64,000 nucleotides of DNA from Trypanosoma brucei (taxonomy: Eukaryota). Numbering within the stretch: the first letter of the stretch is position 1; each line of letters starts with the position of its first letter. A program made the position numbers and the translations under genes. The stretch spans positions 2,496,001-2,560,000 of the forward strand of contig CM000207.1 in the NCBI GenBank assembly GCA_000002445.1, in the 5' to 3' direction. The notes under the pieces are model-generated. The model was not told where the DNA came from and made no database searches. It saw nothing but the letters and a program-made list of their open reading frames with translations. Shown one piece after another: positions 8,471-64,000 of the stretch.

Positions 8471-9181
8471 GGTTTGAGCGCCGGCTACATTCTTTTGTAG
8501 GTTGGTTTTTTTTTCCCTCGCGCAACCGTCAGGACCATGCAGTTGGTACACACCTGATGGTAAGGAGGAAATGCATTTATGCACACCACACCACGAGGAC
8601 GCGGTGATAGCGTGGAATTCAACGCTGGAGACCGGCGTTCCTACTCACTAAAAGACCCTGTTTTTTTTTTTTGAAGAATTGATACCCACAAGTTGGCGAC
8701 CGCATGTGCGCGTTTCTAGGGAAGCGGTCTCCATTTGACGCCCGTTCGATCCCTCCCACGTTGCGTGAACCATGTTTACCATATCTTTCCGCCTCCCCGG
8801 ATGGAGATTTTATCAGGGATTTTGGTTCCCCACCTGAGCATGGCACTGAACCGTGGTGGAAAACTAAGTAATGGTTCTCTCCCCACGGAGCGGTCGCACC
8901 ATATCCGGTGTTGCGGCCGCTGTTTGGATGGAACATTTGACTTCCCAGTTTATTTCTCTTCTGGTACTGGATCCTGGCGCCATATTGAAGCAGATCTATC
9001 CTTAGTGTAAGCTAAATACTCGCAGCCAGATGGGATAGATCTCGGTATTATCTGCGACGAGCACTCTACTTAACCACTAAACCAAGGTAGACAAGGCTCT
9101 TACCCATCCGAAAACGACCCCCGTGCCTGTGAAGGAGCAGAAATAAAAATATTGTGGGCTCGTAGAATAGGAAAAAAGGAG

Positions 9182-10620
9182 ATGATGATGCGCGCTACAA
9201 CGGTGGCTTCCTTACTAGTTTTAACTTTGCATGCAACAAGGCAAACTGCTGCAAACAAAAAAGCAATCAAAGTACAAGGATTTGTGAAGATGTGCACGCT
9301 TTCCAAAAATCTCAGACCGTGCAGGCGTACGCAACCAATAGACTAAAAAAATGGAAGATGATGATTGCAGATCTCAATGATCTCTGCGAGGACCTAACAA
9401 TTCTAAACAAAAAGTAGCGAAAAGTGCCTGAAGTCGCGACACCAGCTTTAATAAGGCTCTTAAGGCATGAGGCAAAAGCGTTAGAACACAAGTATCAGAC
9501 CCTGGAAGAAACAGCACCACTGGCGGGCTCACTTTCGGCACAGGCAGCAGGGGCAATGGACGAAGCAGCAGCTACTTTCTACGCAGCAACCAAAAACGGC
9601 GGCAGCGGCAAATACTACCTTGACCAGGACGGAACGGCCAACAAACTGGCCACAGCAACAGATCTAGCAGGATTCATGACCGAAGAAAGCGCCCCAGTAG
9701 CAGCAGCAGCAGACACAGCGGCAGTCGAAGTCAAGCCGTCCGATATAACAACCGCAGCGGGCACGGGAAGTGACTGCTTACTCACGCAAACGGACAGCAA
9801 TGGCGGTTATATCAACAGTGACGGCATGACCACGGGCATCAAATGGGCCGGCGGCCTTCTAACGTTCAGCACGAACCAATTAACAAACAATCCCTGGACT
9901 GATACGTCAGCGGCGTTAGCGACAGCACCGGTGCTAGAGCAGGCGGCACGACAGCTGGCAACCATATCAACAAAGTGGAGCCACACGAGCGCCGCAATAG
10001 ATAACCTCCTAAAACTCAAAAAGCCCACCGAACAAACTTTCACTGACATCGAGACCAACGAAAATGTCCTGAACCCTGGAGGCAACGACAAGGCACTAAA
10101 GGTAACAAAGGAACAACTAGAGCAGATCAGGCAAAAAGTAAATAATTACAGAGAACCACTCGCCCGTGACGGGAAACTAGACTCAAGCAGAAATAGTTTT
10201 CACCTCCAAGAACTGACGACAAACACTACAGTTACAATTGAAAAAGTCACCGCAGAATGCAACAAACACACTCAGGGAAAGCAAAGCTACGAGACAAAGG
10301 AAGAAGAATGTAATAAGGCAAAAGACAAAAAAAGTGAATGTGGAAAAAAAACTGGGTGCACTTACGACGGCAGTAAGCCAGCTGGCAAAAAATGAACATT
10401 GAGTGAAGAAACCAAACCAAGCATCGGCAAGAGAAACAGCAAACCAAGAAATAGAAGGAAATGATGAGAAAAAAGGGGAGAAATTTGCAGGGAAAGAACA
10501 AAAATACTGAAAAGATAGCTTCAAATGTAAAGGAAAAAGTGCAGGGATCTCGGTTTTCTCATCAATAAGAATTCTGCTCTGAGTATGGCTGCTGTTTTTG
10601 TGAGCTTTGTAGCATTTTAA
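9182..10620 (+). pseudogene. VSG: VSG pseudogene: signal peptide and N-terminal domain intact in places, frameshifted, degenerate C-terminus and GPI signal
   Basis: A true ATG at 9182 gives MMMRATTVASLLVLTLHATRQTAANKKAIKVQGF (signal peptide). The long ORF 9424-10395 is Ala/Thr-rich and ends in a Cys-rich C-terminal domain (CNKHTQGK...ECNKAKDKKSECGKKTGC). A decayed GPI tail ...GISVFSSIRILL follows, then a degenerate 16-mer near 10692. Confidence 0.7.
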
Positions 10621-10689
10621 GAATTTTAAGGATTACTGCTCAATTTATTGAAATTTATGAAATTTTGCTATATTTCTTTATTTATCTTT

Positions 10690-10800
10690 AAGGGATATAT
10701 TTAATGATTATAATAGTAATAGTAATCATAATAATAACTATAATAAATATATAGAAGAGCGTTGTGAGTGTGTATATACGAATATTATAATGAAAATTGT
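10690..10800 (+). repeat. 70-bp repeat block: (TRR)n triplet tract plus the GAGTGTTGTGAGTGTGTATATACGAATATTATAAT core
   Basis: taatagtaatagtaatcataataataac...agaagagcgttgtgagtgtgtatatacgaatattataatg. The same core recurs upstream of every VSG cassette in the window. Confidence 0.75.
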
Positions 10801-13285
10801 GGTAAAAAGTAAATGAGTGGTGAATATAAAAGATTTTAAACAATATAATGGTCGAAATGGACGTAAGTGAGTAAAAGAGATAACACGATTAATGTTATTA
10901 GAGAAAACACGGAAATACAGAAAGAGAGATGGTATATTGAACAGAAGCAGTTTCAAATATGAATATGGATAGGGGCATCATTATACACAACGAGATGACG
11001 AATGGAAAAATAAGGGAGAGACAAAGTTCAGTGACCAGGTTAACTTCTGGCGCTATGTTATGTGCAAAGTATCGGAAGTTAGCGGAAAGATAGAAACAAA
11101 AATAGAAACCGAAACACATGTATCTGTGACCGCCACTGTTTCAGAGAATTTACAACCTAAAGAATGTATTATTTTCTTCAATATGAGACCGTCACTAGAA
11201 GTAAATTGCATAGAATGTTTTTTACCCAATGAATCAGCTACTGGTTGCAGTTAAATTCTCTTAAACTAGCAAAAACAGCACCAAAGTTTGAAAGACTGGC
11301 AGTAAACGGAAATACGCAATGAAGTATAAACGTTGAGAACAAAAAAAGGTTGCATTGCTTCAAAAGTAGCTAAGACACACTGACACTTAGTATCCCTTTA
11401 CACTCGAGGTAATTGTCAAGATTATTGAATAGAATCAAGTATTTTGTTGTTTTTCTAGAACGAAGACAGGTAGAGACGTGGAAAGTGCATCCCAAATGAC
11501 GGAAGCAGTAAACTGAAAACAAGATGACTTAGTAGAGGTTGATTGAATCTACCTTAGTTTATAGAAACCACAGTAGTCTAGCTGTTTCATACAAGGTTCT
11601 TGTTTCCCTAAAGCTTTCGGTCTCGCTATGTTTAAAAGGAGTCAAAATATAGCACACAAATATAAAAATAAATATCTCAAATGGAAGAAACAGGAGCACT
11701 TAAGTTACGAAGGGAAGTAGTCTCAAGGAAACTAGTAGCACCGACTCTTCTTCAATGTTCATAACGTCCATACGAAAAAAAAGATGAAACACATATAGTA
11801 TGGACCTGAATTGGCTGTACAGTTAGAAGGTGTGACTACAAAGGAAATTAAAAATGATCGGTGCGATCAACCGGCAAGCCTCAAAAAAAACATATTTCAC
11901 TCAAAGCTGGATAGATACAGAAACGGAGATAATGGTGACGATCATGTTTTTAATCCGTTTGGAGTTTCTAATATAAAGTTATAGATACCCAGAAATGTAT
12001 TGGATAATTGTGAGGTGCTATAAAAATTTCTTATGGTATTTAGTAATAATGGAAAACATTGTTGGAAACAATATAATATTATCGGAAGGAGAACTTTACA
12101 TATAGAATTGCTAATGGATGACAGTGGAAAGGAAAAATAAAGCAAAGAAAGTGATTAACACAGGATGTTTATGGAGGAATTATTTATGAATTAGAGGGAA
12201 TTAACAGCAACATTCCTGTAATTTCGTATTGATATACTGGACACGCATTAGGATATTTCAAGGAACAAGTAATCTATATAAAAGCAGTCAATGGTGAACA
12301 AATGACGGTTGCCATTAACAAGTTAATCCAATAAACAAAAGCTCCCAAAGCACAAATGTCCAGTTATTAATAGAAAGAGGAACATCCACGCCTAGGATTT
12401 CGAACAAAAGAAAAAAGCTAACCTTTTTTTTGTAAAAATAAGCAATGTTACATTGTTATTCGACCTGCGGCACCTGGAGCCAATATTGCAGTAAGTAAAA
12501 CAAGCGAACGCCATTGAGGTTAAAAATTTAAGATATAGAGGCTTTTTAGATTATTTGCAAAAACATAAGGGTTTAGTGGTAGAGGAATAAATGAAAAATT
12601 TGATACGCCTGCAGCGGCAGTGGACAAGATTAGTGTAAGTGACTCTAAGTGAGATACAAAGAAACATGACAGAAACTGCCGGCACCAACGTTTAACAGAA
12701 CGCATTTTCCGACCGATTCGGAGGTTCATATCCGCGTTTGAACTTCAACGTCAGAAATCCTACAACAGCAACAGAAACCCATAATTAAACAGCAGAGAAG
12801 CAACAGCCTGTAGTACCTGCGCAGTTTCGAACAAATGTTGCGGCGTGCGCGAACCAGAGTGACATCGAAAACATAAGTTTTCAAAGCGCTATCATCGATC
12901 CACACAAAAGAACAACCAAAATGGAAATTCACAACGGCTTATTCAGAGGCGCTATCCAAAGCCCTGACCACTGCCCGTCGCTGGCAAATGCAGCAATAAC
13001 TGGCTGAGAACCAGCGGTCAAAGGGAAGGAAATGCAATATGAAAAGGGAGCTGTCCACGATCCACGTCATCGCCAACAAACACTTTTCTTTGAACCACAA
13101 AACCGCACAAGACAACGGTAATGCCCTCAGGAAGAGACAGGATAGACCTACAGATCGAATAGCTGTCTCCCTAACCACACAAAAAACCAAGGTGGATACT
13201 CTTAACTTACAAAAATTCACTTTAGGAAAGCGAAACACAGCAAGGTCTAGAGATTCTAAGGGAAAAAGCCCAGAAGTCCGCAGTT

Positions 13286-14699
13286 TTGCTGGCGGAATTT
13301 GTGGCCGCGGTATTCGCACAGGATGAAGACTCCTCAGTCGAAGCAATAAAGAGCACGTGTGATGAAGCGGTGTGGCTTCACACCGTCCAAGATAATTATA
13401 TCAAAAATGTACAAACAGCTGCAGCTCGAAATTCTGACCTACTCACAGAAGCCAGAATCCTAACCCTAGCCGCGGCACAGTTCTCCGACCAAACACAACA
13501 GGTGGTACTAACCTCGTTAGCTGCCATTGCAGACCAGCGAGCAACTGCAGCGGCAGCGATCCTAAATCGAGAAACACCAAGCTTACTAGCAGCGGTAGCC
13601 TTGCTGAACGAACGACGCGGCAACGTCCGAGCACTGGCGCGCATTCTAAGCACGCAAGAATCCGCAACTTTCTCAGGGTCGACGGCAGCCGGTGGCGGCA
13701 ACGTCCTCTTTGCCGCGACAACAGTCAAGTGCTTTCTAATAGCAACACTGGACAAGAAACCCACAGCGGAGTGTACAGTAACGGAACAGAGCGCGACGAA
13801 GCTAGCAGATGCAGGCCACCACCTGGCCAAAATAACGAAAATGAAAGCGATACCGCTAACAAAATTTGGCATTCCTCAACTTGGTGTGGACATAGAAACG
13901 AAAGGTACATTCGCCGCAGGCAGTAACCAAGCAAACGAAAATAACAAATGCGCAGACAAACCCATAAAAAGCAGCGAAACCAACGGTTCCTGTTTAACGA
14001 AACTAGCACTAAATCAACCTACAGCGGCACCAACGGACGTGAAACTGAAAGATAAAGACGCCTTCGTAAACGTATCCAAAGAAAAAGACCACTACATCAC
14101 CACTGGTACCCAGGTAGCAAGCGCCACCTATAACCCAAGAGCCCTAACATCCAAACTTCTAGGAAAGATTGCGGATGAAACGGCCGATTTCCCGAGCGGC
14201 GACCCCGCCATTAAGAACGTAATCTATCTCGCACTTAGCCAAGAGAAAAACATCAAGGACAGCACCGACCAAAAAGCAGAAAATGTAAAACCCTGCTTGG
14301 CGGCGCCGGGAACAAACTACAAGACAAAATTTTTTGACTTTCAACGAAGACAACATAAAGTATACTGTTAGGGAACAAACCGTAACCACGAGTGTAAGGG
14401 AGGCTGCAAGCGATTTAAACTACGGAATAACACTAGCATTTTCGCATAAAAGACAACACGGCAATAGCCAGAGCAAGGAATTCCAGAGAGCAGGTGAAAG
14501 CACCGACAAAATCAAAGAAACTGAATGCAGAAATAGAAAAGACAGAGGCAAATACAAGGAAAAGAATGGGTGTGAATTCAAAGATGAGGATTGCAAAGTT
14601 AAAGTGACCACAGCAACAGAAACAACAGAAAACACCACAGAAAGCAATTCTTATGTCATTAACAAGGCTCCTCTTTTGCTTTTATTTTTGATTTTATAA
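13286..14699 (+). pseudogene. VSG: VSG pseudogene, no recognisable signal peptide; frameshift between the N-terminal domain ORF and the C-terminal ORF
   Basis: ORF 13286-14371 (TTG-initiated in the track) is Ala/Thr-rich. ORF 14334-14699 has a Cys-rich C-terminal domain (ECRNRKDRGKYKEKNGCEFKDEDCKVK) and ends ...ESNSYVINKAPLLLLFLIL-stop, a 17-aa-class GPI signal. Confidence 0.7.
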
Positions 14700-14733
14700 A
14701 ACTTTTTAGATTTCCCCCTCTGTTTTGCTATTC

Positions 14734-14749
14734 GGATATATTTTAACAC
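14734..14749 (+). promoter_or_regulatory. VSG 3'UTR 16-mer stability element
   Basis: GGATATATTTTAACAC, 35 nt downstream of the VSG stop at 14699. Confidence 0.65.
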
Positions 14750-15649
14750 TTGAAAATTCCGCGAAAATAATGTGTGTTTGTGTAAAATTGTGACTTTGTA
14801 AAAAAAAAATTGATCTGATAAAAATTTCTCTTTTTTGTCGCTGATTTTTTTCCAGAAAAACAAGAAGGTAAAAAAATGGCGAGGTTATGGAGGATTGAAA
14901 TTTCTAGCGACCATTGTTAGGGTTAAATTTTGGTTTTTTGACAATTTTTGGTTTTCGATTTTTCTAGTGACTTTTGAATTTTTAAGGTTGAGGTTTTTAG
15001 GATTATTAGAGTTAAGGTTTTTTTGTTAGACATTTTTGAGATTTATAAATTTTTTTGGCATTTTTCACATTTTTTAAAGTTTTTGGAGTTGGATTAATTT
15101 TATAAAAAAATTGGGGTTTTAAACTCTTTTATGCGTTTTATATTAATTTTCGTAACTTCAGATTTACACTGAACCCGGCATCAGTTGTGCTAAAACCAAA
15201 AACAAAAGAAAGGAAGGATAGATAGGGTTATGGCTAGAGTTAGGGTAAGAGTTAGGGTTATTCGGGTAGATGTTTTAATTCTCCTTTTTTGGTTTTTTTT
15301 AAATTTGTCATTTTTTCTTAGTGATGCAGCAGCTCTTTCTGTATGTCACCTCTAGGCCTTTTTCACTCAACACGCATCTTCTTCTTCATATTTTTACATA
15401 TTTATTTCATATCCACATCGTTACGATTTATTTCTAACACTTTTTTGAATTTGAGCTCTGCATTTTTCTCTGCGCGCGGCCTCAAAATTTTTTTTATGCT
15501 GGCGCGTGGCAGTTTTGCCTCACAAAACGATTTGCTTTCAAAGAAGAAATAATATAAAAAGAGACCTATTTGGAAGTAGGAGATTATCATGATCAGTGGT
15601 GAAGCATCATCGGCCCGATCTACCGCTGGCAGGCGACGTCTAATGCCGC

Positions 15650-16043
15650 TCAACTGTCAGTGGCGCGTTTTTAACCCCAAAGGAAAAGACGACAAAGAGT
15701 GCAGATTGATTGAGGAAACCAAACAAAAAGCAGCAGAGCAAGAAAATTGAGAAATACGAGGGAAATATGGCAAACATGACCAGAAAACTCACCACATAAC
15801 CGGAATATGAGGCAGTAAACAAGGATAACAAAAATTATTGTGTATAGAGAAGTGGGAAAGATAACAAGGATGAAAAAGACACAAAAATTCCGTGATTCCA
15901 GTTTTCTCGTCAATAAGAAAATTTCTCTGATGGCTGCTTCTGTTTTAAGTTTGGTAGTATTAAAAGATTTTTCGCTTAGTTTTATTAAATACTTCATTTT
16001 TGAGAGAATCTACAAAAATTTGAAACAATCTGATATATTTTAA
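15650..16043 (+). pseudogene. Orphan VSG C-terminal fragment (C-terminal domain, GPI signal, 3'UTR) with no N-terminal domain
   Basis: ...KGKDDKECRLIEETKQKAAEQE... then DSSFLVNKKISLMAASVLSLVVL. A 16-mer-like TGATATATTTTAATTA sits at 16031-16046, followed immediately by a 70-bp repeat. Confidence 0.6.
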
Positions 16044-16049
16044 TTATTT

Positions 16050-16195
16050 TTTAATAGTTAGAGTTATATAATAATTATGATATTAATAGAAGAGCACTGT
16101 AAGTGTATATATACTAATACTATAATAATAATAATAGGATAGTCTTGTGAGTGTGTTTATAATAATGTTATGATAAGAGTTGTGGTGAAGAATGA
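16050..16195 (+). repeat. 70-bp repeat block, about two units
   Basis: agaagagcactgtaagtgtatatatactaatactataataataataatagg ... cttgtgagtgtgtttataataatgttatgataagagttgtggtg. Confidence 0.7.
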
Positions 16196-17589: not shown

Positions 17590-19057
17590 ATGTTTAAGCC
17601 GACAGCAGTGGTGACGCTAACTCTTGTTTTTATCTGCATCGAACAGCATGCAGATGCCCAAGCACAGGAATCTTTGATTAGCGCTGTCACCACACCGTGT
17701 CATGAACTGCAGTATCTAAAAAAGTTAATAGGCCACTTCGAAGGACAATTACAAGCACCGAGCAACAACCTCAAAGATCTGGCGGCGGACTTCACCCAAC
17801 TGACAATCAGCCATGCGTGCTCAACGTCAACTTCAACGAAACAAGCGGTGGGAGCTTTTCTCGCGAAAAGATCTGAAGCAATGCACTAACAAGAAGCGAT
17901 TATTCAAGCTGGTAGAGGCACAGTAACGAAATTGTTAAGAGCACTTAAAGACAAGAGGATGCAAACACGAACACTAATAAGGTCTGCACTAGACAAACTA
18001 ACTCTAAGCGGCGGATCAAACCCGCAAACGGGACAGGCCGGCCTAAGCAGGGCCACCGACGAGCAGCGCGACGTGCAAGACACAGGCGATGGAAAAGACA
18101 GTAACACTTGCGACACCGAAGTCACAGCCGGAGCGCATAAAGAGGAAACAGTGATCACAGAGATACCCGCATCGAAAATATACAGCTTATCCCCGATGCC
18201 AAATTCAACCCACCGAGCTACAAGCTCAAAATAGCTTCGGCAGTGAGGGCTCAATGAGCACAATGAAACCAGGAGCCTACGCGATGACCCCGACATATGA
18301 CAGCACACCGCTCGGACAACTAACAAAAGCGTTCGGAGTAGTGTCAGCAACGCGTGACACGAGAAATGACCGGCCGACCAAAACAACCTTATTTAAGCCA
18401 GCTGGCAAAAATGCTGGCTGCGAAGATGACAACACAGACGAAAAAAAAAACCTAACAACGACTAAAAGATTAGCAGCCCTGCTTTTCCGGCACCGACACA
18501 TCAACATAAAGACAGTCGCCCGACCTCTTCAAAAGAGAAAAAATGACCTATAAAGTGACTCAACATTACGCAAAATAGCCCAGCTATTCAAACACCGAGA
18601 AACCAATAGTGCCGAAGAGGACAACAAGCAAACTTCAGCTGTCAAGGCGTTGCTCCCCAACGGCGAAGCAACCTTAACTTCAGATCTAAAACCGTTGGAA
18701 AACGAGCACATCAGTTACAAAGCAGACAACGGTATAGCAAAGATAAACTTAAAGGAAGCCAACAGCGCCGGCGAAATTGCGAAAACTCTTGATTTTTGTT
18801 TCGCAAAAGAACACGCCGCCAAAGTAGCGGAAAGAGCACAAAAGACAAACCCAGATACTAAAACAGAAGAAAAATACAAGGAAAACACAGAAGAAAAAAT
18901 GCAAAGAAGACAAAGATTGTGAGCTCAAAGATAGTAAATGCAAACTTAAAGAGGGTGTAAAAGCTGAAAATGATGTGAAAACTACAAACACCACAGGAAG
19001 TAATTCTTTTATCATTAAAAAGGTCCCTCTTTTGCTTGTATTTTTGATTATAGTATA
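17590..19057 (+). pseudogene. VSG: VSG pseudogene: true ATG and signal peptide, multiple frameshifts, GPI signal retained
   Basis: MFKPTAVVTLTLVFICIEQHADAQ starts at ATG 17590. ORFs 17590-17889, 17932-18234, 18254-18553 and 18650-18922 sit in shifting frames. The C-terminus reads ...CKLKEGVKAENDVKTTNTTGSNSFIIKKVPLLLVFLII. A degenerate 16-mer TGACATATTTTAGCAC lies at 19114-19129. Confidence 0.7.
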
Positions 19058-19698
19058 ACACATTTAAGAAATTTGCTCAATTTTTATGAAATATTCTAAC
19101 GTTTACCAATATCTGACATATTTTAGCACCTTTAAATTCCCCGTAAATTGTGTGCTTTTGTTAAATTTTGAGTGTGTACAATTTTTTGTTGCTTAAAATT
19201 TTCTCTTTTTTCTTTTGTTTTCTGTTGATTTTTTTTTGAATTTTTTGGGTTAGTTTTTTTGGTATGTTCGATGTAGTAAAACAGACAAAAAACCTAAAGG
19301 CAAGCTAGAAAATGTTAGGGGTAGGGTCATTCGGGTTGTGGTTACGATTTGTAATTTTTGTTTTAATTTTTTAATGATGCAGCGGCTCTTTCTCGATGAA
19401 ACCCTAACACTTCTTACTCCAGCAGACATCTTTGCTTAAATTCTCTTGATATTCATTTTTACCACGCCGCCGTTACGCTTTTGTTCATTTTGATTTTGTG
19501 AATTTCAGCTCCTCATTTTTGGCTGCGCGCGGCGTTAAACATTTTTTTTCGTTAAAACAAAAGCTGGCGCATGGTCTAAGCTGCTGCACACAGCTTTTAT
19601 TTTTATTTTTTTACAGTGGCGTGTGGCAGTTTCGCTGCGGCCCTCCCTCTGCTTTTAAGGTGAGGTAGAAGCAAGCAAAAGATATTCAGCAGCAACAC

Positions 19699-34631: not shown

Positions 34632-34667
<36 letters not shown>

Positions 34668-54598: not shown

Positions 54599-54692
54599 CA
54601 CTTTTAAGAATTATTGGCAAATTCTTTTTTCTAAATTTTACAAAATTACAAAATTTTTTATTTTGAGAGTGATTTTTAAATCGTTAAAATTT

Positions 54693-54707
54693 AACATATT
54701 TTAACAC
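54693..54707 (+). promoter_or_regulatory. VSG 3'UTR 16-mer
   Basis: AACATATTTTAACAC. Confidence 0.65.
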
Positions 54708-54839: not shown

Positions 54840-55025
54840 GTGAAAAGTAGTAATAATAATAGTAATATGAGAGTGTTGTAAGTGCGTGTGTAATAAATAA
54901 TAATAATTATAATAATGATAATTATAATAATAGAAGAGTGTTATGAGTGTGAGTATATACGAATATTATGATCAGAGCAGTAATAATAATAATAATAATG
55001 ATAATAATGATAGTGATATGAAAGT
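54840..55025 (+). repeat. 70-bp repeat block (2-3 units)
   Basis: gtaataataatagtaatatgagagtgttgtaagtgcgtgtg...ataataatagaagagtgttatgagtgtgagtatatacgaatattatgatcagagcagtaataataataataataatgataataatgatagtgatatg. Confidence 0.8.
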
Positions 55026-56728: not shown

Positions 56729-58170
56729 ATGCATATTGTAGCACGTCTGGTTGCGCTTCTGCTCTGTTTATCTACAGTTGCCGACGCCAACGACAAAACT
56801 TCCCACGCATTCAAGGCACTTTGCCTAAACTTTAACGTTGCTAGAGCTACAGTCACAGATACAGATTACAACGGTGAACAGCAAACGGTAGCGGTTCCAC
56901 ACGACGTCCTTTACCTGTACATGAGCTCGATGAAATCCAAGGACTACCTAAACCAGACGTCAGCACTAGTGGACGACACAGAAGCTGGCTGGAAGACAAA
57001 GAAGGAGGCCCTAGAATCACTCAAAGACGCCGCCAGCAACCGTCTTTACCCATTTATACCAGATAGCACAACAAAACAGGCGGTGCACGACGCCTTGGAA
57101 AAGATTTTTAATGAGTCCACGGCGCTCGCCAATTCTATAGAACAAATAAAAGGTGAGATAATAACAGCGGCAAAAGAAGTAAGAGAGGCTTTATCTACAG
57201 CAGCTTACGGTGGTAAAGGCTTGACTGCCGTGCCACAGACCCAATTTGGAGGACGGAGCACGACATGTTCCGGCAACACTGCTTGCACAATGCCAGGCAT
57301 CTCGATTGCACACGACATGGTGTGCGTTTGCAGCGGCGGAACCGACGGCACCGGCATCTGCGGCAATGGGATAGGAACGACCACCTACGACGAGACCAAA
57401 ACAAGCTTAGACGCAGTGGAGATCCAGAAACTTTTCGCAGACATCAAAACTGCATGCAATAAGCAGCAGACAGCAAACAAAGCAACACCGGCGGCCATCC
57501 ATGCGGCGCTAGTGGCCTTCGAACGACAGTTAGGCAAAGAAGTCGCCGACGGCAGTGACGTGCAGCTAAAATTAGGAAACGGTGCAGCAGGCGATTGCAA
57601 CGGCGTCGGCAGCGCAACCACATGCGTAAATTATGGCGGCGTAGCAACTAACGGCAGCATTCTCAACATTAACTGGGTTTCTCAAATGGAAAAGGCAGCA
57701 AACAAGTTAGCAGAGGCAACAAGCAAGCGAGCGGCTCTAGAGGCTGCGAGAGTAGAAATGAGACAGAAGCAGACAGCAGCGTGGGCAGCAGCGGCATTGC
57801 TAAAATTAAAGCTTCTGGACATGCCAGAAACAGTACAAACGGTAACTAAGGCACAAACTTCAGAAACTGATTACAACAAACATACAAAAAGCGAGGACTG
57901 CAAAGACCCATGCAATTGGGAAGAGAATGCTACTGACAAAACTAACAAATGCTCATTAGACCCAGTAGAAGCAACATAGAAAACTAGACAAACATGGGCA
58001 GAAACAGGAGAGGGAAAGAAAGAAGAGAAGTGCAAGGGAAAGAAGCAAGGGGATTTTGAGGAGTTTACTGGCTGCAAATGCAAAACTGAAATATAAAAGG
58101 ATTCCACCTTTCTTGCAAGTAAAAAATTTACTCTTATTTCTGCTGTCTTTATTAGTTTGTCATCATTTTA
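56729..58170 (+). pseudogene. VSG: VSG with complete 416-aa N-domain ORF, then in-frame TAG (57977-57979) and TAA in the C-terminal tail. The GPI-like tail is retained out of context
   Basis: ATG 56729 gives MHIVARLVALLLCLSTVADANDKTSHAFKALC...DYNKHTKSEDCKDPCNWEENATDKTNKCSLDPVEAT-stop. The same frame continues KTRQTWAETGEGKKEEKCKGKKQGDFEEFTGCKCKTEI-stop, then KDSTFLASKKFTLISAVFISLSSF. Confidence 0.75.
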
Positions 58171-58429
58171 GTATTCTGGTAATTTAAGGGTTTTTATGAA
58201 ATTTGCTTTATAGAGAGAGTTTGCCATTTTATAAGAATTTGCTGATATTTACTATAATTTTATATTTTTTAATATTTTTGATGAAAATTTTAAACTTTTG
58301 AAGGTTTAAAATTTTTACCAAGCTGAGTATGATAGCGGCTTAATAGTGTAAAGTAATAGGTGGCAGGGTATGGAAAATAAGTTATATTATAATTTTCTTT
58401 ATTTTGTTTATTTTATGAATATTAATTAG

Positions 58430-58645
58430 AGCGATAATACAAATAATAATGATGACAGCAATAAAATAGCTAAAAATCAATAACTAATAATAAATAAACA
58501 AATATAAAAATGAAACAACATGAATGCGGAAAAGAAATACGATAGAAAATATAAATATAATGATAATGATAATAATGATAGAAGAGTTTCGTTAGTGTGT
58601 ATATACTAATGTTATAGTAAGAGAGGTAACGATAATAATAAATGA
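58430..58645 (+). repeat. 70-bp repeat block with a long AT-rich triplet tract
   Basis: ...aatgataatgataataatgatagaagagtttcgttagtgtgtatatactaatgttatagtaagagaggtaacgataataataaatg. Confidence 0.65.
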
Positions 58646-60214
58646 ACCGCAAAAATAGAAGAGATTAAAACAATGGCGACTGTGTAATGGGAGTAAGTAA
58701 ATAAGGTGGAAAGTTAGTAAAAGAAATAGAAATATGGAAAGAAAAAGAGAGATGGAAAAGGATATGATATATGCGCGAGTCAATATACAAGGGGATGATG
58801 GGGTGAAGGATTAGATAAAAAAGTAAATACAGTGTGCAGGCCACATGGAGTTGCTACATCATCTGAAGAAGCAGTAAGCAAAACATTCGAAAAATACAGA
58901 ATGAAATGCCAGAATATGTGACAATAAAGTAGATGATAGTTGAATATTGTGCATAAATTTTCTATGTATAAATGCTAGTGAGAGATAGAGTCGATTATAG
59001 TTTTTATTCTGATGGTCGATCCCAACATCCATCTGTGAAAATGAAGAAGCATGGGGAATAAGAAGGAAGGTTTTGGATGAGTATGAGGCAAAATAAAAGT
59101 ATTCTTCTCATCAGATGTAGAAATAATTGCTAATATTTCTGTGAAAAAATGTAATATTTTTGAGAGGATATTTTTAAAGCTTTAACTACAGTTTAATTAC
59201 GGTGGATAGCGCATTAAAAACAAAGAAGCAGAAACTGCTTAAATTTAAGTGTATTTTACCTGTTTGAGGGGATTTATGCGTTGCAGAAAGTTTTTAATGA
59301 TACTCATTCCATTCCGTATTGTTATACACGCCAGAAACCAAGACCTTTAAAGGAACGAGCAATTCATATAATAGTTGTCGCAGAGGCGCAGATGACGGCA
59401 CGAATTACCAGAACAATAAAAAGGAGCCAGGTGCTTTTGGAGCCCAAAAATACCAGTTTCAACCTCCGTTTCCACAAAACAAAGTCAGATAGTCAAAATA
59501 AAAAACAATAAGCCAATCTTATTAACGAGAGGAAGCGACGGTTTTAAGTTATTTCGTGTTAAAAGGGAAGCATTGAAATTAGAAGATGATAGAAGGGAAG
59601 GAGAAACATAAATTTTAATTGGTTTACATATGGATACAAGTGGTATAGGTTAGATTTGATAAGAATGAGGCCCTTTGGTTAAGCGGTATGCTTTTTCACG
59701 AGCACGTCACAGCGAACGGAGCACCACCCACAAAGTCTGGCAAAAGGTAGCTGAAAGTAAATCAAGAAAAATTGCTCAATCACTAGTATAGTTTCAATAG
59801 ATTGGGAATTCACACATTCAGCTTAAAATAAAAGGGAGTAGACCGATAAAGCCTTTCGGTGAGGCAGTTTTCGTTACAGTGCACCCCTTGATTAGTAGTT
59901 ATAGAATATTTGCGGAAGGCAGAAGGTTAGAAACTGAAAAATCCATCGCAGTACGCGCGTGTCAACTGGGCGATATCACCTCTTCGTTTTTCTCACACTT
60001 TAGCGGAATCCGGCACCAAGACACAGGAAGCCAAATCAGCTAAGCATCTTACCCTGCTTCCCAATCCTACTTGCACTATATACACAGGTCACGGCAGCTA
60101 AGGAGAAAAAGCCAAAACTACAGCTTCACGGCGCAAGCTCCGTAAAGGATTTTAACACCGGAACTACGGTTCAAGAACGGCACCCTGACGACAGCGCAGC
60201 ATTTAGCCACAACA

Positions 60215-61608
60215 ATGCGCAAAGTAAACGCGGCTTTTACAGGAATAGCGCTGTTTCTGGCAGTAACAATACTCGCACGCAGAGCCGAGACGGAGTCGTC
60301 CAAGCAGTCGACAGCATGTAAGTCAGCTAACTACCTACAAAGCCTACAGAAAACAATTCGACAGCAACCATTGCTGTTCCTTAGAGAAATAAAAAACCTC
60401 CAAACGACACGGCAAATACTCGAATTAGCACGATCATAAACAATTGAAGCGACCGCGCGGGGCGCAGCTGCGCTTCTAGAAGCAGTAACCAAGCACACAG
60501 ACACACTACTTGACTAGGCGAAACAGTGCTCAGCAAAAGCACCCAAAGCGGCCGCGCTCCTCAGCACACAGGCTGAAAGGCACTGTGCTATAGCCAAAGC
60601 CGACAAGATAGCGGCAGCCACAAGCACTGGCGAGAGCCTCTCCGATGGTGGCGCCGCAACTGACAAGTACGCAGAGTTAACAGTAGAAAAAGCGGACGAC
60701 ACAACCTTCATGGAAATGCTAGCAAGTGAACTTAAAGTACAGGAAGCCAGCATAAACTTACAAGGTCTAGGGAACCTAAACTTCTTTGGCCTAGAACAAA
60801 CGGCAGATGGGGGCCACACGGACAGAAAAATATGCCACGGAGCTTGCACAAGCACGTGCAGCACGATAGGCAACTGGCAGCTCAAGATAGTAAGCAAACA
60901 GCTGCTGAAATAAAAGGCGGCAAAAAAACTCGAAGTGAGAGCAAAAGGAAAAACGCCTAATGAGGAGCCGACCAAAGACACGAAAAGCAAAACATCTCTG
61001 ACCCGGCACGACAACGACCTCGAATGGGGAATACATGAGTTTCTCAAGAACAAATACTGCGATTTCGATAAACTTGATTTTGGGAGGACCGCAGCGAGCA
61101 AAACCGACGACACAATCAGACGAATAATGCTAGCGGCAACTTAATGAGCGACAACCAAATATGACCCCGCAAACAGCGCCCAAAAAGCAGCAATTGACAG
61201 TTTGAAAAAACAAACATTTGGATATGACAAAAGTGCATTTGAAAACGTATTTTGGAAAACCATTAAAGACCATACGATAGACTTAACGATTGGCGGCAAA
61301 GAGCTGAAAAAAAGTTAGATAATCTCGCGACATCATACAGTCCACTGCCAGCAACAGCTTCAAGGCGATTTTAAGAAGCAAAAGCAAAAAGGTGCGACAA
61401 TATAGCCGCAGTCACAAAGTCTGACATAAAATGCGAGGGAAGCGAGAAAGCTAAGTGCGACAATAAAAAGTGTAAATTCAAAGACGGAAAAAACAAACTT
61501 AAAGAGTATTTGAAAATGGGGAATAAAGGAAAAACTGCAAACACCGCTGGGAGAAACTTTTTTGTCATTAAAAATGCGCCTCTTTGGCTTGCATTTTTGC
61601 TTATATAA
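60215..61608 (+). pseudogene. VSG: Heavily degenerate VSG pseudogene: signal peptide and GPI signal recognisable, middle frameshifted
   Basis: ATG 60215 gives MRKVNAAFTGIALFLAVTILARRAE... The C-terminus reads ...KCDNKKCKFKDGKNKLKEYLKMGNKGKTANTAGRNFFVIKNAPLWLAFLLI-stop. A 16-mer AATATTTTAACAC lies at 61688-61700, and a 70-bp repeat at about 61855-61955. Confidence 0.65.
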
Positions 61609-61854
61609 TTAACTATCTCAAAGACGTTTTGCTCAATTGTATGAAATTTTCCATTTTGAGAGAATTTTGTTAAATTACTAAAAATTAAAATATTTTAACA
61701 CTTTATGATGAGAATGTACAATTTAATGAAGCAGTGAAAATATGAAGGAAATGAAATTTTTTCATGATAGAGGCCTATGGATTCACATTAGTATGTTGGT
61801 AGGGTATGCATAATGAGTGGTATTCTGATTATTTCTAATTTTGCCTAATTTTAT

Positions 61855-61955
61855 GAATATTAGTTGAGATTATAATACGGAGAATAATAGAAACAATAAT
61901 AATAATGGTAATTTGTTGTGAGTTTATTTATACTAATACTAAAAAATTTTCGGAA
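61855..61955 (+). repeat. 70-bp repeat
   Basis: ataatacggagaataatagaaacaataataataatggtaatttgttgtgagtttatttatactaatactaaaaaa. Confidence 0.6.
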
Positions 61956-63333
61956 CGGAATGGCTGGTCGTAAAAAAATTGAACTATTGAGACAATTGAA
62001 AAGGAAAAGTGTGAATGAGTGAGATAGTGGGTAAGAGAATGAGATGAAGAGTAAGGAGGAGATAAAATATACAAAGTTTCAGTCATAATTATGACTATGG
62101 GTTTCATTCACATCGAGAAAAAGGAGCCAATAACTGAGAAATAGTCCATTCCACAGATGAAATGGAACCGCTCTAACTAACAAAAAGGAACGGTGGATGT
62201 GGAGGCACCTAACTGTACCATTGTCAACAAGCTCCAAAGAACTCATTGAAGAATGAATTATTTTCACTTAAGGCACTATGACGTATACACAGCGATCTTA
62301 CACAAAAATTCAGTTCACAAACAACGTCTGATTTGTCTGAAGATGCGTTTCTTACAAGAATTTAACCAATCATAGTAAGAAATGAAAAAACAGTCAGTTG
62401 ATTTTTGGAGTGAAACCTATAACAACAATGAAAAACTCCACTAAAGTTAGAAATACTAACAGCAAGCGGAAGAACACCTTAACACAAGAAACAAAAAGCA
62501 TAAATAAGTATAAAATTGCATCGAAAACTAGTGCAGAAACAGTGAGTTTTTAGTGGTCCCTGCACGTACTCTAATTGGCCAATATATTATGTAGAAGCAA
62601 GAACCTAGCTCTTTTTCAAGTGTGAAGCTTTTAAAGATTTGGAAAATGAGTTTAAGTGTCACCTTTAGAAGAAAAGAAGCGAGAAGACTTACAAGTGTGC
62701 AATTGGATCTATTTATAAAGGTGAAAAGCAAAAAAGCCAATTTTTAACAACATTTCAAATATCTTAAGCTTAGTCCATTGTTAACATTAGGAAAAACTAT
62801 AGGAAATTTTTTACTCCAAAGGATGCTTGTTTAAATACAAAATTTAAGGTGAATTTTACCTGTTTTAATGACCATGGAATTCTGTGGTGAAACTAGGGTT
62901 TTAGAAAGTTGAAAATGTTTACAACACTGCTATTCAGAATGATGATCTATATATTTAATCAAGCAGACACATATCTCAGTTTACAGAGAACAAAATCGGA
63001 TATGCTGTTACTTGAAATTTTTTTAGAACTCACCAATTTTATGTAAGTCACTTTACAAAAGTAACATTCAATTGAATAATATATATTTTTAAAACAGTGA
63101 AGAAGTGAGGAATGATTTTTGATGCAGGTAGTGTTACCTTTATTATTATTATTTTGTGATGATTTGTATGAAGAAACGCTAATTATATATTCTAAAGATA
63201 ATCAGATACTGACCTGTAGCACAGACAGGAACTGGAGGAAAAAACTCCTTTCCGCATTGTTGTGGCTTTTTCATTAAAACGATGACGATAAAGAAGGAAC
63301 AAACCAACGAATGTAAGCCTTTTCTGCGTTATT

Positions 63334-63518
63334 TTGGGGGCATCCGCACTAATCACGGCAATTTTTGCATACGGGACGGTAACCAAAGGAAAAAACGCAG
63401 AGGACTTTGCGGCACTGTGTGGCTTAGTACAATTTGCTAAATCAAAAGTAACGGACGCTACGAAGCCTCAGGAAATAGAGAAAGTCATCAACACGTTGGC
63501 TGCTATAAATTTCGCATT
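63334..63518 (+). pseudogene. VSG: VSG N-terminal fragment (signal peptide and start of N-domain) truncated by ingi insertion
   Basis: ...ALITAIFAYGTVTKGKNAEDFAALCGLVQFAKSKVTDATKPQEIEKVINTLAAINFAF, then the ingi 5' sequence in the same reading frame (ORF 63334-63837). Confidence 0.6.
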
Positions 63519-64000
63519 CCCTAGCGATGCCGGCCACCTCAACGTGGTGCCAGGGTCCATTACCCCGTATCATCGGGGGAAGCCAAGAGCCAGCAGAGTT
63601 CCTTTCATGGGGAACACTGCTGTGCTCCGGCTACGGCATCATACAGCACAGGGATCAGCAGCGTCTTGCTGGGACACCGTTTTTCATTTGTCGGTCCCTG
63701 GGCACGTGGCTAGCGTGCCATCAGCAGTATCATCCGCACTAAGATGCTGCTGTCCGGTGATGTGGAAGAGAATCCCGGCCCGTCGTTGCGCGGGATGCAG
63801 TGGAACTGCGCCGGGCTATCTCAAGGAAAGAGATTAGCACTCCACAAAACCCTTGTTGATGAGCGGATCGCCTTTTGTCTGTTGAGCGAGACAAGGATGA
63901 CGCTTGGAGAGGCGGCTTTCTTTAGCGTTGCTGACTACCAACATCATGGAATAGCTCGTAACTGCAAAGGAGGTGGTGTATCAATACTAGTGAGGGAGGA
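63519..64000 (+). mobile_element. ingi: Second ingi copy (5' end, + strand) running off the end of the window
   Basis: From 63526 the sequence GATGCCGGCCACCTCAACGTGGTGCCAGGG... is the reverse complement of 48591-48620. From about 63742 it encodes MLLSGDVEENPGPSLRGMQWNCAGLSQGKRLALHKTLVDERIAFCLLSETRMTLGEAAFFSVADYQHHGIARNCKGGGVSILVRE. Confidence 0.9.

What the first reader, a model, noticed from the sequence alone, without database searches (positions are those of the whole stretch)
9100..63520. Window is a unidirectional silent VSG array (13+ cassettes) of an African trypanosome, not a prokaryotic locus
One module recurs 13 times on the + strand: a 70-bp repeat with TRR triplets and the GAGTGTTGTGAGTGTGTATATACGAATATTATAAT core, a 1.3-3 kb upstream region, an Ala/Thr/Lys-rich ORF with signal peptide and Cys-rich C-domain ending in a hydrophobic GPI signal, and a 3'UTR with TGATATATTTTAACAC. 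ingi elements and TTAGGG-like relics place it in Trypanosoma brucei or a close relative. Any prokaryote-style interpretation (operons, CRISPR, defence islands) is inappropriate here.
Basis: partly seen in the sequence, partly recalled or inferred. Interest (0 to 1): 0.5.

Follow-up and report, generated by a model that had tools for sequence, protein, structure and literature searches.

The report
Trypanosoma brucei silent VSG gene array

Summary
Two intact ORFs (36076-37620 and 53081-54598) are residue-for-residue identical to consecutive annotated proteins of T. brucei brucei TREU927 (XP_827741.1 and XP_827742.1, "VSG, atypical, putative") on a 3.06-Mb chromosome record. Between 9.19 and 63.52 kb I count 14 VSG genes or gene remnants, all on the + strand: 2 intact but atypical, 10 near-full-length pseudogenes, and 2 cut by ingi retrotransposons. 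There are also 2 extra C-terminal relics. Thirteen 70-bp-repeat sites lie 1.0-3.2 kb upstream of the VSGs, and twelve copies of the VSG 3'UTR 16-mer lie 35-127 nt after VSG ends. Only a profile or relaxed matching recovers the full set. Most "ORFs" are pseudogenes. The left 9 kb of the window is not part of the unidirectional array: it holds an inverted VSG C-terminal relic, an LRRP gene relic and about 5 kb I could not identify. This is textbook subtelomeric VSG archive from a genome published in 2005, so it is already known and of low interest. Minor extras are an intact-ORF ingi with no target-site duplication at a VSG truncation junction, and two paralogous modules with telomere-repeat relics.

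The parts
2775..3281 (+). Relic of a leucine-rich repeat protein (LRRP) gene, N-terminal residues 53-221 only. It lies outside the array proper.
   Evidence: phmmer hit at 86% identity to a 1448-aa protein, named LRRP of T. brucei TREU927, XP_846402.1. That protein has LRR Pfam domains. tblastn maps 2775-3281 at 85% identity.
8020..8584 (-). Inverted VSG C-terminal-domain relic (8063-8584) with a 16-mer-like site (8020-8035), head-to-head with V1.
   Evidence: Local B-type HMM hit at 8102-8299 (-), 7.6e-11. Inverted blastn matches to the C-terminal regions of four + strand VSGs. 16-mer with 2 mismatches on the - strand. Weak Trypan_glycop_C hit.
9188..10617 (+). V1: A-type VSG pseudogene (frameshifted). 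No 70-bp repeat upstream within the window.
   Evidence: Pfam Trypan_glycop 2e-10 for 9424-10395 and a weak hit for 9074-9343. GPI-tail HMM hit at 10531-10617. Signal-peptide-like MMMRATTVASLLVLTL.
10751..10802 (+). 70-bp repeat site, preceded by TAA/TGA triplets at 10702-10746.
   Evidence: nhmmer 1.2e-14. 35-mer with 1 mismatch. TRF. Alignment.
13286..14749 (+). V2: class-A1-like VSG pseudogene plus 16-mer (14734-14749).
   Evidence: Local HMM 4.3e-34 for 13226-14368. tblastn with named VSGs. 16-mer with 1 mismatch.
14750..16046 (+). Telomere-relic module: T-rich 28-nt repeats, a degenerate TTAGGG run (15222-15257), a VSG C-terminal relic (15819-16040) and a second 16-mer (16031-16046).
   Evidence: TRF. 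TTAGGG-dimer search. HMM hit 2.5e-6. 16-mer with 3 mismatches. About 70% paralogy to 18986-20187. Sequence read directly.
16084..16186 (+). Two adjacent 70-bp repeat copies.
   Evidence: nhmmer 2.7e-6 and 1.6e-12.
17590..19129 (+). V3: heavily damaged VSG pseudogene plus 16-mer (19114-19129).
   Evidence: Local HMM 2.5e-5 at the N-terminus. Signal-peptide-like N-terminus and a Cys-rich, hydrophobic C-terminus in shifted frames. 16-mer with 2 mismatches.
19130..20183 (+). Second telomere-relic module: TTAGGGGTAGGG (19315-19326), a VSG C-terminal relic (19669-20082) and a 16-mer (20168-20183).
   Evidence: Pfam Trypan_glycop_C 1.9e-7. 16-mer with 1 mismatch. Paralogy. Sequence.
20295..20350 (+). 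70-bp repeat site.
   Evidence: nhmmer 2.7e-13. 35-mer with 2 mismatches.
22078..23627 (+). V4: A-type VSG pseudogene plus 16-mer-like site (23612-23627).
   Evidence: Local HMM. Pfam Trypan_glycop 2.2e-4 for 22513-23163. tblastn. 16-mer with 3 mismatches.
23844..23899 (+). Decayed 70-bp repeat site.
   Evidence: nhmmer E 0.051. It lies 216 nt after a 16-mer, like the strong sites. Alignment.
24925..26490 (+). V5: class-A1-like VSG pseudogene (in-frame stop at 25984) plus 16-mer (26475-26490).
   Evidence: Local HMM 3e-9 and 3e-37. 38 tblastn probes. 16-mer with 1 mismatch.
26673..26729 (+). 70-bp repeat site.
   Evidence: nhmmer 1.7e-12.
27984..29542 (+). V6: B-type VSG with a premature stop inside the C-terminal domain, plus the only exact 16-mer (29527-29542).
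   Evidence: Pfam VSG_B 4.2e-59. C-terminus continues after the stop. 16-mer with 0 mismatches.
29764..29785 (+). Strongly decayed 70-bp repeat site.
   Evidence: nhmmer E 1.2. Position 221 nt after a 16-mer. Aligns with the others.
31740..33330 (+). V7: A-type VSG pseudogene plus 16-mer (33315-33330).
   Evidence: Pfam Trypan_glycop 4.5e-20. CTD HMM hit at 32658-33272. 96% identical to a T. brucei VSG fragment. 16-mer with 2 mismatches.
33511..33565 (+). 70-bp repeat site, preceded by (ATA)n at 33460-33513.
   Evidence: nhmmer 9.4e-13. TRF.
35091..35912 (+). 273-aa ORF in the V8 upstream region, probably a glycosyltransferase gene relic.
   Evidence: Weak Pfam Galactosyl_T hit, E 0.027. DDD and EDI motifs seen in the translation. 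Inference only.
36076..37709 (+). V8: intact 514-aa B-type VSG ORF, annotated atypical, plus 16-mer-like site (37694-37709).
   Evidence: Exact match to XP_827741.1 / EAN77411.1. Pfam VSG_B 1.3e-67 and Trypan_glycop_C 1.4e-23. PDB VSG3 6elc 1.3e-31. 7 Cys in the last 130 residues and an over-long hydrophobic tail.
37913..37961 (+). 70-bp repeat site followed by (ATA)n.
   Evidence: nhmmer 2.7e-9. TRF.
41190..42722 (+). V9: B-type VSG pseudogene with several frameshifts.
   Evidence: Pfam VSG_B 5.9e-10 and 5.4e-29 on two fragments. HMM hits in four frames' fragments, including the GPI tail.
42774..42822 (+). 70-bp repeat site whose VSG is missing or truncated.
   Evidence: nhmmer 9.4e-11.
43372..48627 (-). 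ingi1: complete 5256-bp ingi-type non-LTR retrotransposon with an uninterrupted 1526-aa ORF (48401-43821) and a 9-nt A-tail. No target-site duplication.
   Evidence: Pfam Exo_endo_phos, RVT_1 (3.8e-43), RNase_H and zf-C2H2. Boundaries from the sequence and the match to ingi2. Target-site duplication test negative. Size and ORF length fall within the published ingi range (PMC3820030).
48628..49741 (+). V10: 3' two-thirds of an A-type VSG, truncated at its 5' side by ingi1, plus 16-mer-like site (49726-49741).
   Evidence: Pfam Trypan_glycop 5e-5 at profile positions 170-245 for 48629-48910, and positions 302-363 for 49046-49306. GPI-tail HMM hit at 49582-49668.
49934..50042 (+). Two decayed 70-bp repeat copies.
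   Evidence: nhmmer E 0.11 and 2.3e-5.
53081..54707 (+). V11: intact 505-aa class-A1 VSG ORF, annotated atypical, plus 16-mer (54692-54707).
   Evidence: Exact match to XP_827742.1 / EAN77412.1 / Q38CQ8. 37 VSG relatives. Family profile hits VSG397 8b3e 9.5e-30 and VSGsur 6z79 8.4e-24. Q38CQ8 is listed as class A1a in PMC10501684. Phe at the conserved Cys458.
54864..54982 (+). Two 70-bp repeat copies separated and followed by (TAA)n.
   Evidence: nhmmer 1e-3 and 1.4e-13. TRF.
56729..58174 (+). V12: B-type VSG pseudogene with two in-frame stops in the C-terminal domain.
   Evidence: Pfam VSG_B 9.8e-45. C-terminal reading continues after the stops.
58578..58630 (+). 70-bp repeat site.
   Evidence: nhmmer 2.8e-8.
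60182..61701 (+). V13: damaged, probably A-type, VSG pseudogene plus 16-mer (61686-61701).
   Evidence: Signal-peptide-like N-terminus and a Cys-rich, hydrophobic C-terminus in shifted frames. Weak Pfam Trypan_glycop hit for 61148-61315. tblastn at 61429-61695. CTD DNA similar to that of V3. 16-mer with 2 mismatches.
61914..61941 (+). Decayed 70-bp repeat site.
   Evidence: nhmmer E 0.082. It lies 212 nt after a 16-mer. Alignment.
63334..63517 (+). V14: first ~60 codons of a B-type VSG, cut by ingi2.
   Evidence: Pfam VSG_B 1.4e-10 at profile positions 5-59. Local HMM.
63518..64000 (+). ingi2: 5' end of a second ingi element, running off the window.
   Evidence: 97.7% identity over 483 nt, inverted, to 48145-48627. 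tblastn 96% to ingi1 ORF residues 1-85.

Best explanation
The window is a piece of a megabase chromosome of Trypanosoma brucei brucei TREU927, the reference genome strain. From about 9.2 kb to its right end it is a head-to-tail, same-strand subtelomeric array of silent variant surface glycoprotein (VSG) genes.

Shown here:
- There are 14 VSG units. Two are intact but 'atypical', ten are near-full-length pseudogenes, and two are truncated by ingi retrotransposons.
- All but the first are preceded at 1.0-3.2 kb by one or two 70-bp repeats. V10 is the exception in distance: its repeat lies 5.8 kb away, across the inserted ingi1.
- Most are followed within 35-127 nt by the VSG 3'UTR 16-mer.

Inferred from established knowledge of the system (VSGdb paper PMC1868767; Hovel-Miner 2016 PMC4858185; Hall 2013 PMC3708902; 16-mer papers such as PMC5698767 and PMC9044945):
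- The genes are not expressed where they sit.
- A VSG is activated when it is copied by duplicative gene conversion into the single active telomeric bloodstream expression site. The upstream 70-bp repeat supplies the 5' homology. The conserved C-terminal coding region and 3'UTR supply the 3' homology.
- Pseudogenes and fragments contribute through segmental gene conversion that assembles mosaic VSGs.
- Once in the expression site, the 16-mer stabilises the very abundant VSG mRNA.
- The ingi insertions, the telomere-repeat relics and the inverted relic at 8 kb are scars of the recombination and retrotransposition that reshape these subtelomeres.
For: Identity: two ORF products are exact matches to consecutive TREU927 accessions on one 3,057,547-bp record. 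In the window only pseudogenes and an ingi lie between them, which fits the consecutive numbering.

VSG membership: Pfam, solved structures, named relatives, and the listing of Q38CQ8 as class A1a in the literature.

Repeat and 16-mer anatomy and strand.

Array rather than expression site: only 1-2 repeat copies per site, against 39+3 in a BES (PMC4858185). No domain hits in the inter-VSG intervals. No terminal telomere tract.

The mix of atypical genes, pseudogenes and fragments matches the published make-up of the TREU927 archive, in which 4.5% of genes are intact (PMC1868767).
Against: No direct nucleotide comparison with the TREU927 assembly was possible. No trypanosome DNA collection was available, and the look-up of encoding contigs had no record. 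Identity therefore rests on two exact proteins, plus a 96%-identical T. brucei VSG fragment for a third unit. Transcriptional silence and donor function are taken from the literature, not from this sequence. The chromosome assignment (probably chromosome 9) is my recollection only. V1 has no 70-bp repeat upstream, and V1, V9 and V12 have no recognisable 16-mer.
Confidence: 0.97

Rival explanations
1. The locus is a telomeric VSG expression site (bloodstream or metacyclic) or a minichromosomal VSG locus, not an internal silent array.
For: 70-bp repeats, VSGs, 16-mers and degenerate TTAGGG runs (15222-15257, 19315-19326) are also features of telomeric VSG loci.
Against: Fourteen tandem VSG units, mostly pseudogenes, do not fit. 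Each repeat site holds only 1-2 copies, not the tens of copies seen in a BES. No ESAG-type domains were found in the intervals scanned. The TTAGGG runs are short, degenerate and internal, and are followed by more cassettes. The host record is 3.06 Mb.
Confidence: 0.01
2. The window comes from a different Trypanozoon genome (T. b. gambiense, T. evansi, T. equiperdum, or strain Lister 427) and not from TREU927.
For: Close relatives of individual VSGs exist in other strains. VSG-463 of Lister 427 falls in the same 90% cluster as V11. A T. equiperdum VSG is 84% identical to V8.
Against: V8 and V11 are 100% identical over 514 and 505 residues to TREU927 entries with consecutive accession numbers. 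VSG archives differ widely between strains (PMC1868767). The best non-TREU927 relative of V8 is only 84-95% identical.
Confidence: 0.02
3. It is a prokaryotic or viral locus whose repeats and ORFs only mimic a VSG array (CRISPR-like array, defence island, phage).
For: None beyond the regular spacing of a short repeat.
Against: All homologues found are trypanosomal. A eukaryotic non-LTR retrotransposon is present. No tRNA or Rfam hits. Repeat spacing of 3-7 kb is incompatible with CRISPR.
Confidence: 0.002

Closest known systems
Subtelomeric silent VSG arrays of T. brucei TREU927 (genome project annotation; VSGdb, PMC1868767)
   Same: It is one of them. It has exact annotated proteins, tandem same-strand cassettes, 1-2 upstream 70-bp repeats, a conserved 3' end with the 16-mer, a predominance of pseudogenes, atypical genes and fragments, and interspersed ingi elements.
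   Different: Nothing of substance. This window happens to contain no VSG annotated as fully functional. It also includes a boundary at about 8.6-9.2 kb where an inverted VSG relic and non-VSG relics begin.
Bloodstream VSG expression sites (BES) of T. brucei
   Same: The same building blocks are present: 70-bp repeats upstream of a VSG, the 16-mer in the 3'UTR, and TTAGGG repeats downstream. The array cassettes are the donors copied into a BES.
   Different: A BES has a Pol I promoter, a series of ESAGs, tens of 70-bp repeats (39+3 in BES1, PMC4858185), usually one functional VSG, and a real telomere. None of these is present here.
ingi / RIME non-LTR retrotransposons of T. brucei (PMC3820030)
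   Same: ingi1 is 5256 bp with a single 1526-aa ORF carrying endonuclease, RT, RNase H and zinc-finger domains, a conserved 5' end shared with ingi2, and an A-tail. All of this lies within the published range (4736-5419 bp; 1500-1760 aa).
   Different: ingi1 lacks the usual 12-bp target-site duplication, and I did not find the full published upstream insertion signature. This suggests its flanks were rearranged after insertion.
Silent-cassette antigenic variation archives in other pathogens (Borrelia vlsE silent cassettes, Neisseria pilS, Anaplasma msp2 pseudogenes, Babesia ves) - from my own knowledge
   Same: It works like them: unexpressed, often incomplete donor copies are moved by gene conversion into one expression locus.
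   Different: They have unrelated proteins, unrelated recombination signals and a far smaller scale. There is no family relationship.

Membership tests
Variant surface glycoprotein (VSG) genes of Trypanosoma brucei | N-terminal domain of class A or class B | tested here: met
   Pfam VSG_B or Trypan_glycop above the gathering score for V1, V6, V7, V8, V9, V10, V12 and V14. Sub-threshold Trypan_glycop hits for V4 and V13. V2, V5 and V11 are met through a family profile that hits VSG397 and VSGsur structures at 1e-30 and 1e-24. V3 is supported only by a 2.5e-5 local HMM hit plus its terminal signals.
Variant surface glycoprotein (VSG) genes of Trypanosoma brucei | Cys-containing C-terminal domain followed by a hydrophobic GPI-anchor signal; N-terminal signal peptide | tested here: met
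   Trypan_glycop_C hits in V8 (1.4e-23) and the relic at 19699-20082 (1.9e-7). Hydrophobic last 17 residues in V8 and V11 (Kyte-Doolittle +2.3 and +2.4) and hydrophobic N-termini. GPI-tail HMM hits at nine + strand sites. V8 and V11 deviate in Cys count (7 and 3), which matches their 'atypical' annotation. No dedicated signal-peptide or GPI predictor was run.
Variant surface glycoprotein (VSG) genes of Trypanosoma brucei | Conserved 16-mer TGATATATTTTAACAC in the 3'UTR | tested here: met
   12 + strand sites at up to 3 mismatches, 35-127 nt after a VSG end or CTD relic, against about 1 expected in the window on both strands. Absent at this stringency after V1, V9 and V12. The sequence is the one printed in the literature.
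70-bp repeat (VSG recombination element) | AT-rich unit of about 76 bp with a (TRR)n part and the GT-rich core GAGTGTTGTGAGTGTG...ATATTATAAT, upstream of a VSG | tested here: met
   13 loci, all on the + strand, 1.0-3.2 kb upstream of the next VSG start (5.8 kb for V10, across ingi1), with triplet runs detected by TRF. Published properties are in PMC4858185. The sites at 23844, 29764 and 61914, and the copy at 49934, are decayed.
Silent subtelomeric VSG array (as opposed to an expression site) | Many tandem VSGs on one strand, mostly pseudogenes; short 70-bp tracts; no ESAGs, promoter or telomere | tested here: met
   14 units on the + strand, 12 of them damaged. 1-2 repeat copies per site. 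No Pfam domains in the intervals tested. No telomere tract. Promoter absence was not tested.
Silent subtelomeric VSG array (as opposed to an expression site) | Not transcribed in situ | not testable with these tools
   This needs RNA-seq, nascent-RNA or chromatin data. It is taken from the literature (PMC1868767, PMC4858185).
Genome of T. brucei brucei TREU927 | Nucleotide identity and collinearity with the reference assembly | tested here: inconclusive
   Protein level only: two exact matches of 514 and 505 aa with consecutive accessions on one 3,057,547-bp record. No trypanosome DNA collection was available, and the contig look-ups returned nothing.
ingi non-LTR retrotransposon | About 5.2-kb element with a single long ORF (APE endonuclease, RT, RNase H, zinc finger), a conserved 5' signature and a poly(A) tail | tested here: met
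   The published ranges are in PMC3820030.
ingi non-LTR retrotransposon | 12-bp target-site duplication and conserved upstream insertion motif | tested here: not met
   For ingi1 the 12 nt upstream are GTATATTGTAGT and the 12 nt after the A-tail are TCTGCTGAACTA. The regular expression for the full published signature did not match either copy. This is a property of an undisturbed insertion rather than of the element, so it argues for later rearrangement, not against membership. The 3' end of ingi2 lies outside the window.

The most novel reading that the evidence does not exclude
The ingi1 copy, which has an uninterrupted 1526-aa ORF but no target-site duplication, sits exactly where a VSG loses its first ~500 nt and its upstream region. 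This would mark an ingi-mediated ectopic recombination or deletion that remodelled the archive. In the same spirit, the two paralogous 'VSG 3' end - telomere-repeat relic - VSG C-terminal relic' modules (14.6-16.05 kb and 19.0-20.2 kb) would record the capture of formerly telomeric VSG copies into an internal array, followed by duplication. Together they would give a dated, sequence-level example of how retroelements and telomere healing build VSG arrays.
Probability: 0.35. Interest if true: 0.2.

Novelty: already known. Interest (0 to 1): 0.05.

Why it matters
It matters mainly as a triage result. The window is eukaryotic, comes from a reference genome annotated since 2005, and should be removed from any search for new prokaryotic systems. 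Biologically it is a clean textbook example of the VSG archive that underlies antigenic variation in African trypanosomes. Nothing in it changes what is known about that system.

Tried and rejected
- Literal motif searches: the 35-mer gives 2 hits and the exact 16-mer gives 1. On their own they undercount the module, so I replaced them with a profile and relaxed matching.
I used stop-free fragments and local HMMs instead.
- The look-up of encoding contigs for both exact proteins had no record, so no flanking DNA or annotation could be fetched.
- Pfam found nothing for V2, V5 and V11, and phmmer of V11 against the PDB found nothing. I considered that they might not be VSGs. I rejected this after 37 named VSG relatives, profile hits to VSG397 and VSGsur, and the class A1a listing.
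- Left region 3.3-8.0 kb: ten fragments gave no credible Pfam hit. The only lead is two weak collinear tblastn hits to the ingi ORF. A degenerate ingi-related element is possible but unproven.
- An ingi DNA search at word size 7 found no further ingi or RIME pieces.
- The published ingi insertion signature and the target-site duplication were not found.
- Rfam and tRNA scans found nothing.
- Long antisense ORFs (for example 41281-42168 and 60514-61113 on the - strand) gave no domain hits. I take them as chance ORFs opposite biased coding sequence.
- Marcello & Barry 2007 (Genome Res) could not be read in the library. Archive statistics are cited from the VSGdb paper instead.

Full report
**Observation**

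The literal strings are much rarer than that. The 35-nt 70-bp-repeat core matches only at 10757 and 20303, even with 3 mismatches. The 16-mer TGATATATTTTAACAC is exact once and matches four times at up to 1 mismatch. The module is nevertheless real.

A 13-nt core gives 11 hits against 1.8 expected. An nhmmer profile built from seven clear copies finds repeat sites at 13 loci, every one on the + strand. All 13 align to a consensus containing the quoted core, preceded by TAA/TGA-type triplets.

With up to 3 mismatches the 16-mer gives 14 hits against 1.0 expected. Twelve are on the + strand, each 35-127 nt downstream of a VSG end or C-terminal relic.

The geometry is regular:
- VSG bodies are 1.41-1.55 kb.
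- The distance from 70-bp repeat to VSG start is 1.0-3.2 kb.
- The distance from 16-mer to the next repeat is 111-221 nt in nine cases, 37 nt in one, and over 1.1 kb in the two units that carry an inserted telomere-relic module.

The sole weak repeat sites (E 0.05-1.2) fall 212-221 nt after a 16-mer. I therefore accept them as decayed copies.

**What the ORFs are**

Pfam assigns VSG_B to 27984-29339, 36076-37620 (with Trypan_glycop_C) and 56729-57979, and A-type Trypan_glycop to 9424-10395 and 31740-32657. Stop-free fragments of the damaged units give:
- VSG_B for 41046-41387, 41762-42283 and 63292-63528;
- Trypan_glycop for 48629-48910, with weaker hits for 9074-9343, 22513-23163, 49046-49306 and 61148-61315;
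- Trypan_glycop_C for 19699-20082.

Three bodies (13.2-14.4, 24.9-26.4 and 53.1-54.6 kb) had no Pfam hit. The 505-aa ORF has 37 relatives, almost all named VSGs of T. brucei or T. equiperdum. A local HMM of that family hits the other two bodies. Its profile matches the solved structures VSG397 (9.5e-30) and VSGsur (8.4e-24) over the whole N-terminal domain. UniProt Q38CQ8, which is this ORF, is listed as structural class A1a (PMC10501684). The 514-aa ORF matches VSG3 (6elc, 1.3e-31) end to end. In the first probe run, 111 of 112 tblastn HSPs were on the + strand.

**Identity**

The products of 36076-37620 and 53081-54598 are exact matches to EAN77411.1/XP_827741.1 and EAN77412.1/XP_827742.1. 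Both are annotated 'variant surface glycoprotein (VSG, atypical), putative' of T. brucei brucei TREU927, on a record of 3,057,547 bp. The consecutive numbering fits the window, where only pseudogenes and an ingi lie between the two genes.

I could not retrieve the DNA record. The nucleotide-level match therefore remains to be done, and 'chromosome 9' is only my recollection.

**Anatomy**

I count 14 VSG units on the + strand.

| Unit | Coordinates | Type | State |
|---|---|---|---|
| V1 | 9188-10617 | A | pseudogene |
| V2 | 13286-14699 | A1-like | pseudogene |
| V3 | 17590-19055 | not assigned (weak A1-like HMM hit) | pseudogene |
| V4 | 22078-23549 | A | pseudogene |
| V5 | 24925-26391 | A1-like | pseudogene |
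| V6 | 27984-29400 | B | stop in the C-terminal domain |
| V7 | 31740-33272 | A | pseudogene |
| V8 | 36076-37620 | B | intact |
| V9 | 41190-42722 | B | frameshifts |
| V10 | 48628-49668 | A | 3' part only |
| V11 | 53081-54598 | A1 | intact |
| V12 | 56729-58174 | B | in-frame stops |
| V13 | 60182-61605 | probably A | pseudogene |
| V14 | 63334-63517 | B | first ~60 codons only |

These rest. Two further C-terminal relics lie at 15819-16040 and 19669-20082.

Only V8 and V11 are uninterrupted ORFs. Both deviate from the norm in the C-terminal domain. V8 has 7 cysteines in its last 130 residues and an over-long hydrophobic tail. V11 has Phe where at least 90% of its relatives have Cys (position 458), leaving 3 cysteines. 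That is what VSGdb calls 'atypical' (PMC1868767). The mix of atypical genes, pseudogenes and fragments matches the published make-up of the TREU927 archive, in which 4.5% of genes are intact.

**Retrotransposons**

The 1526-aa minus-strand ORF (48401-43821) has endonuclease, RT, RNase H and zinc-finger domains. The element runs from a 9-nt A-tail at 43372 to 48627, a length of 5256 bp. That is within the published ingi range (PMC3820030).

Positions 63518-64000 are a 97.7% identical inverted copy of its 5' end. A second ingi therefore starts there on the + strand and cuts V14.

ingi1 cuts V10 at about A-type profile position 170. The other flank of ingi1 is non-coding sequence only 550 nt from a 70-bp repeat, and there is no 12-bp target-site duplication. 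The element therefore sits at a rearrangement or deletion junction, not at a simple insertion.

**Telomere-like relics**

After the 16-mers at 14734 and 19114 come T-rich short repeats, then degenerate TTAGGG runs (15222-15257 and 19315-19326). A shared segment follows, then a VSG C-terminal relic with a second 16-mer, and then the next 70-bp repeat. The two modules are about 70% identical in three blocks. TTAGGG-like repeats 3' of telomere-proximal VSGs are mentioned in PMC3708902. I read these modules as scars of once-telomeric copies. That is an inference.

**Outside the finding**

The left 9 kb is different from the array:
- A VSG C-terminal relic lies on the minus strand at 8063-8584, with a 16-mer-like site at 8020-8035 (-). 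It is head-to-head with V1.
- 2775-3281 (+) is an 85%-identical relic of the N-terminus of a TREU927 leucine-rich repeat protein.
- 3.3-8.0 kb gave no credible domain hits. Two weak collinear tblastn hits to the ingi ORF are the only lead.

**Mechanism**

Shown here: the cassettes, their flanking homology elements, their decay, and the absence of expression-site features. Each repeat site holds 1-2 copies, against 39+3 in BES1 (PMC4858185). No domains were found in the inter-VSG intervals. There is no telomere tract.

Inferred from the literature:
- The units are silent donors, copied into the active telomeric expression site by duplicative gene conversion. The conversion is bounded upstream by the 70-bp repeat and downstream by the conserved C-terminal region and 3'UTR (PMC4858185).
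- Pseudogenes contribute segments to mosaic VSGs (PMC3708902).
- The 16-mer controls VSG mRNA stability once the gene is expressed (PMC5698767, PMC9044945, bioRxiv 10.1101/2020.01.30.925776).

**Verdict**

The locus is part of a published, annotated reference genome, so it is already known and of low interest. The only mildly interesting residues are the ingi junction without a target-site duplication and the duplicated telomere-relic modules.

Noticed in passing
window 8020-8584 (- strand): An inverted VSG C-terminal-domain relic with its own 16-mer-like site sits head-to-head with the first + strand VSG (V1, 9188 onward). The array orientation therefore breaks at about 8.6-9.2 kb, just left of the finding.
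   Followed up: partly
window 2775-3281 (+): Relic of the N-terminal region (residues 53-221 of 1448) of a T. brucei leucine-rich repeat protein (LRRP), 85% identical to XP_846402.1. The LRR part is missing.
   Followed up: yes
window 3300-8000: About 4.7 kb with no recognisable gene. There are only two weak, collinear tblastn hits to the ingi RT/RNase H region (4313-4582 at E 0.037; 4937-5155 at E 9.3). This may be a degenerate ingi-related element (DIRE), but that is unproven.
   Followed up: partly
window 43372-48627 (- strand): The ingi copy has an uninterrupted 1526-aa ORF but no 12-bp target-site duplication (GTATATTGTAGT against TCTGCTGAACTA). Its 3' flank is non-VSG sequence, while its 5' flank is the middle of a VSG. 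It therefore marks a rearrangement or deletion junction, not a simple insertion.
   Followed up: partly
window 48363-48401 (- strand) and 63744-63782 (+): Both ingi ORFs begin MLLSGDVEENPGP, a 2A-like 'NPGP' ribosome-skipping motif. Such a motif is described at the 5' end of the related L1Tc element (PMC5814959).
   Followed up: partly
window 14630-16050 and 18986-20187 (+): Two paralogous modules, about 70% identical. Each has a VSG 3' end with 16-mer, T-rich 28-nt repeats, a degenerate TTAGGG run, a shared segment, and a second VSG C-terminal relic with 16-mer. They look like duplicated scars of formerly telomeric VSG copies.
   Followed up: partly
window 35091-35912 (+): A 273-aa ORF in the upstream region of V8 with DDD and EDI motifs and a weak Galactosyl_T hit (E 0.027). 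It is probably a relic of a glycosyltransferase gene.
   Followed up: partly
window 53081-54598 and 36076-37620 (+): The reasons for the 'atypical' annotation are visible in the sequence. V11 has Phe at a Cys conserved in at least 90% of relatives (position 458; 3 Cys in the C-terminal domain). V8 has 7 Cys in its last 130 residues and a hydrophobic tail extended by about 8 residues.
   Followed up: yes
window 13226-14368, 24850-26391, 53081-54598 (+): Pfam's two VSG N-terminal models (PF00913, PF13206) miss this class-A1 subfamily entirely. Without a family profile these would have been scored as 'no VSG domain'.
   Followed up: yes
window 41281-42168 and 60514-61113 (- strand): Long ORFs (295 and 199 aa) lie antisense to the VSG pseudogenes V9 and V13 with no domain hits. 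They are most likely chance ORFs opposite compositionally biased coding sequence.
   Followed up: partly
window 34606-34683: A pure (AT)n microsatellite of about 78 nt lies in the V8 upstream region.
   Followed up: no
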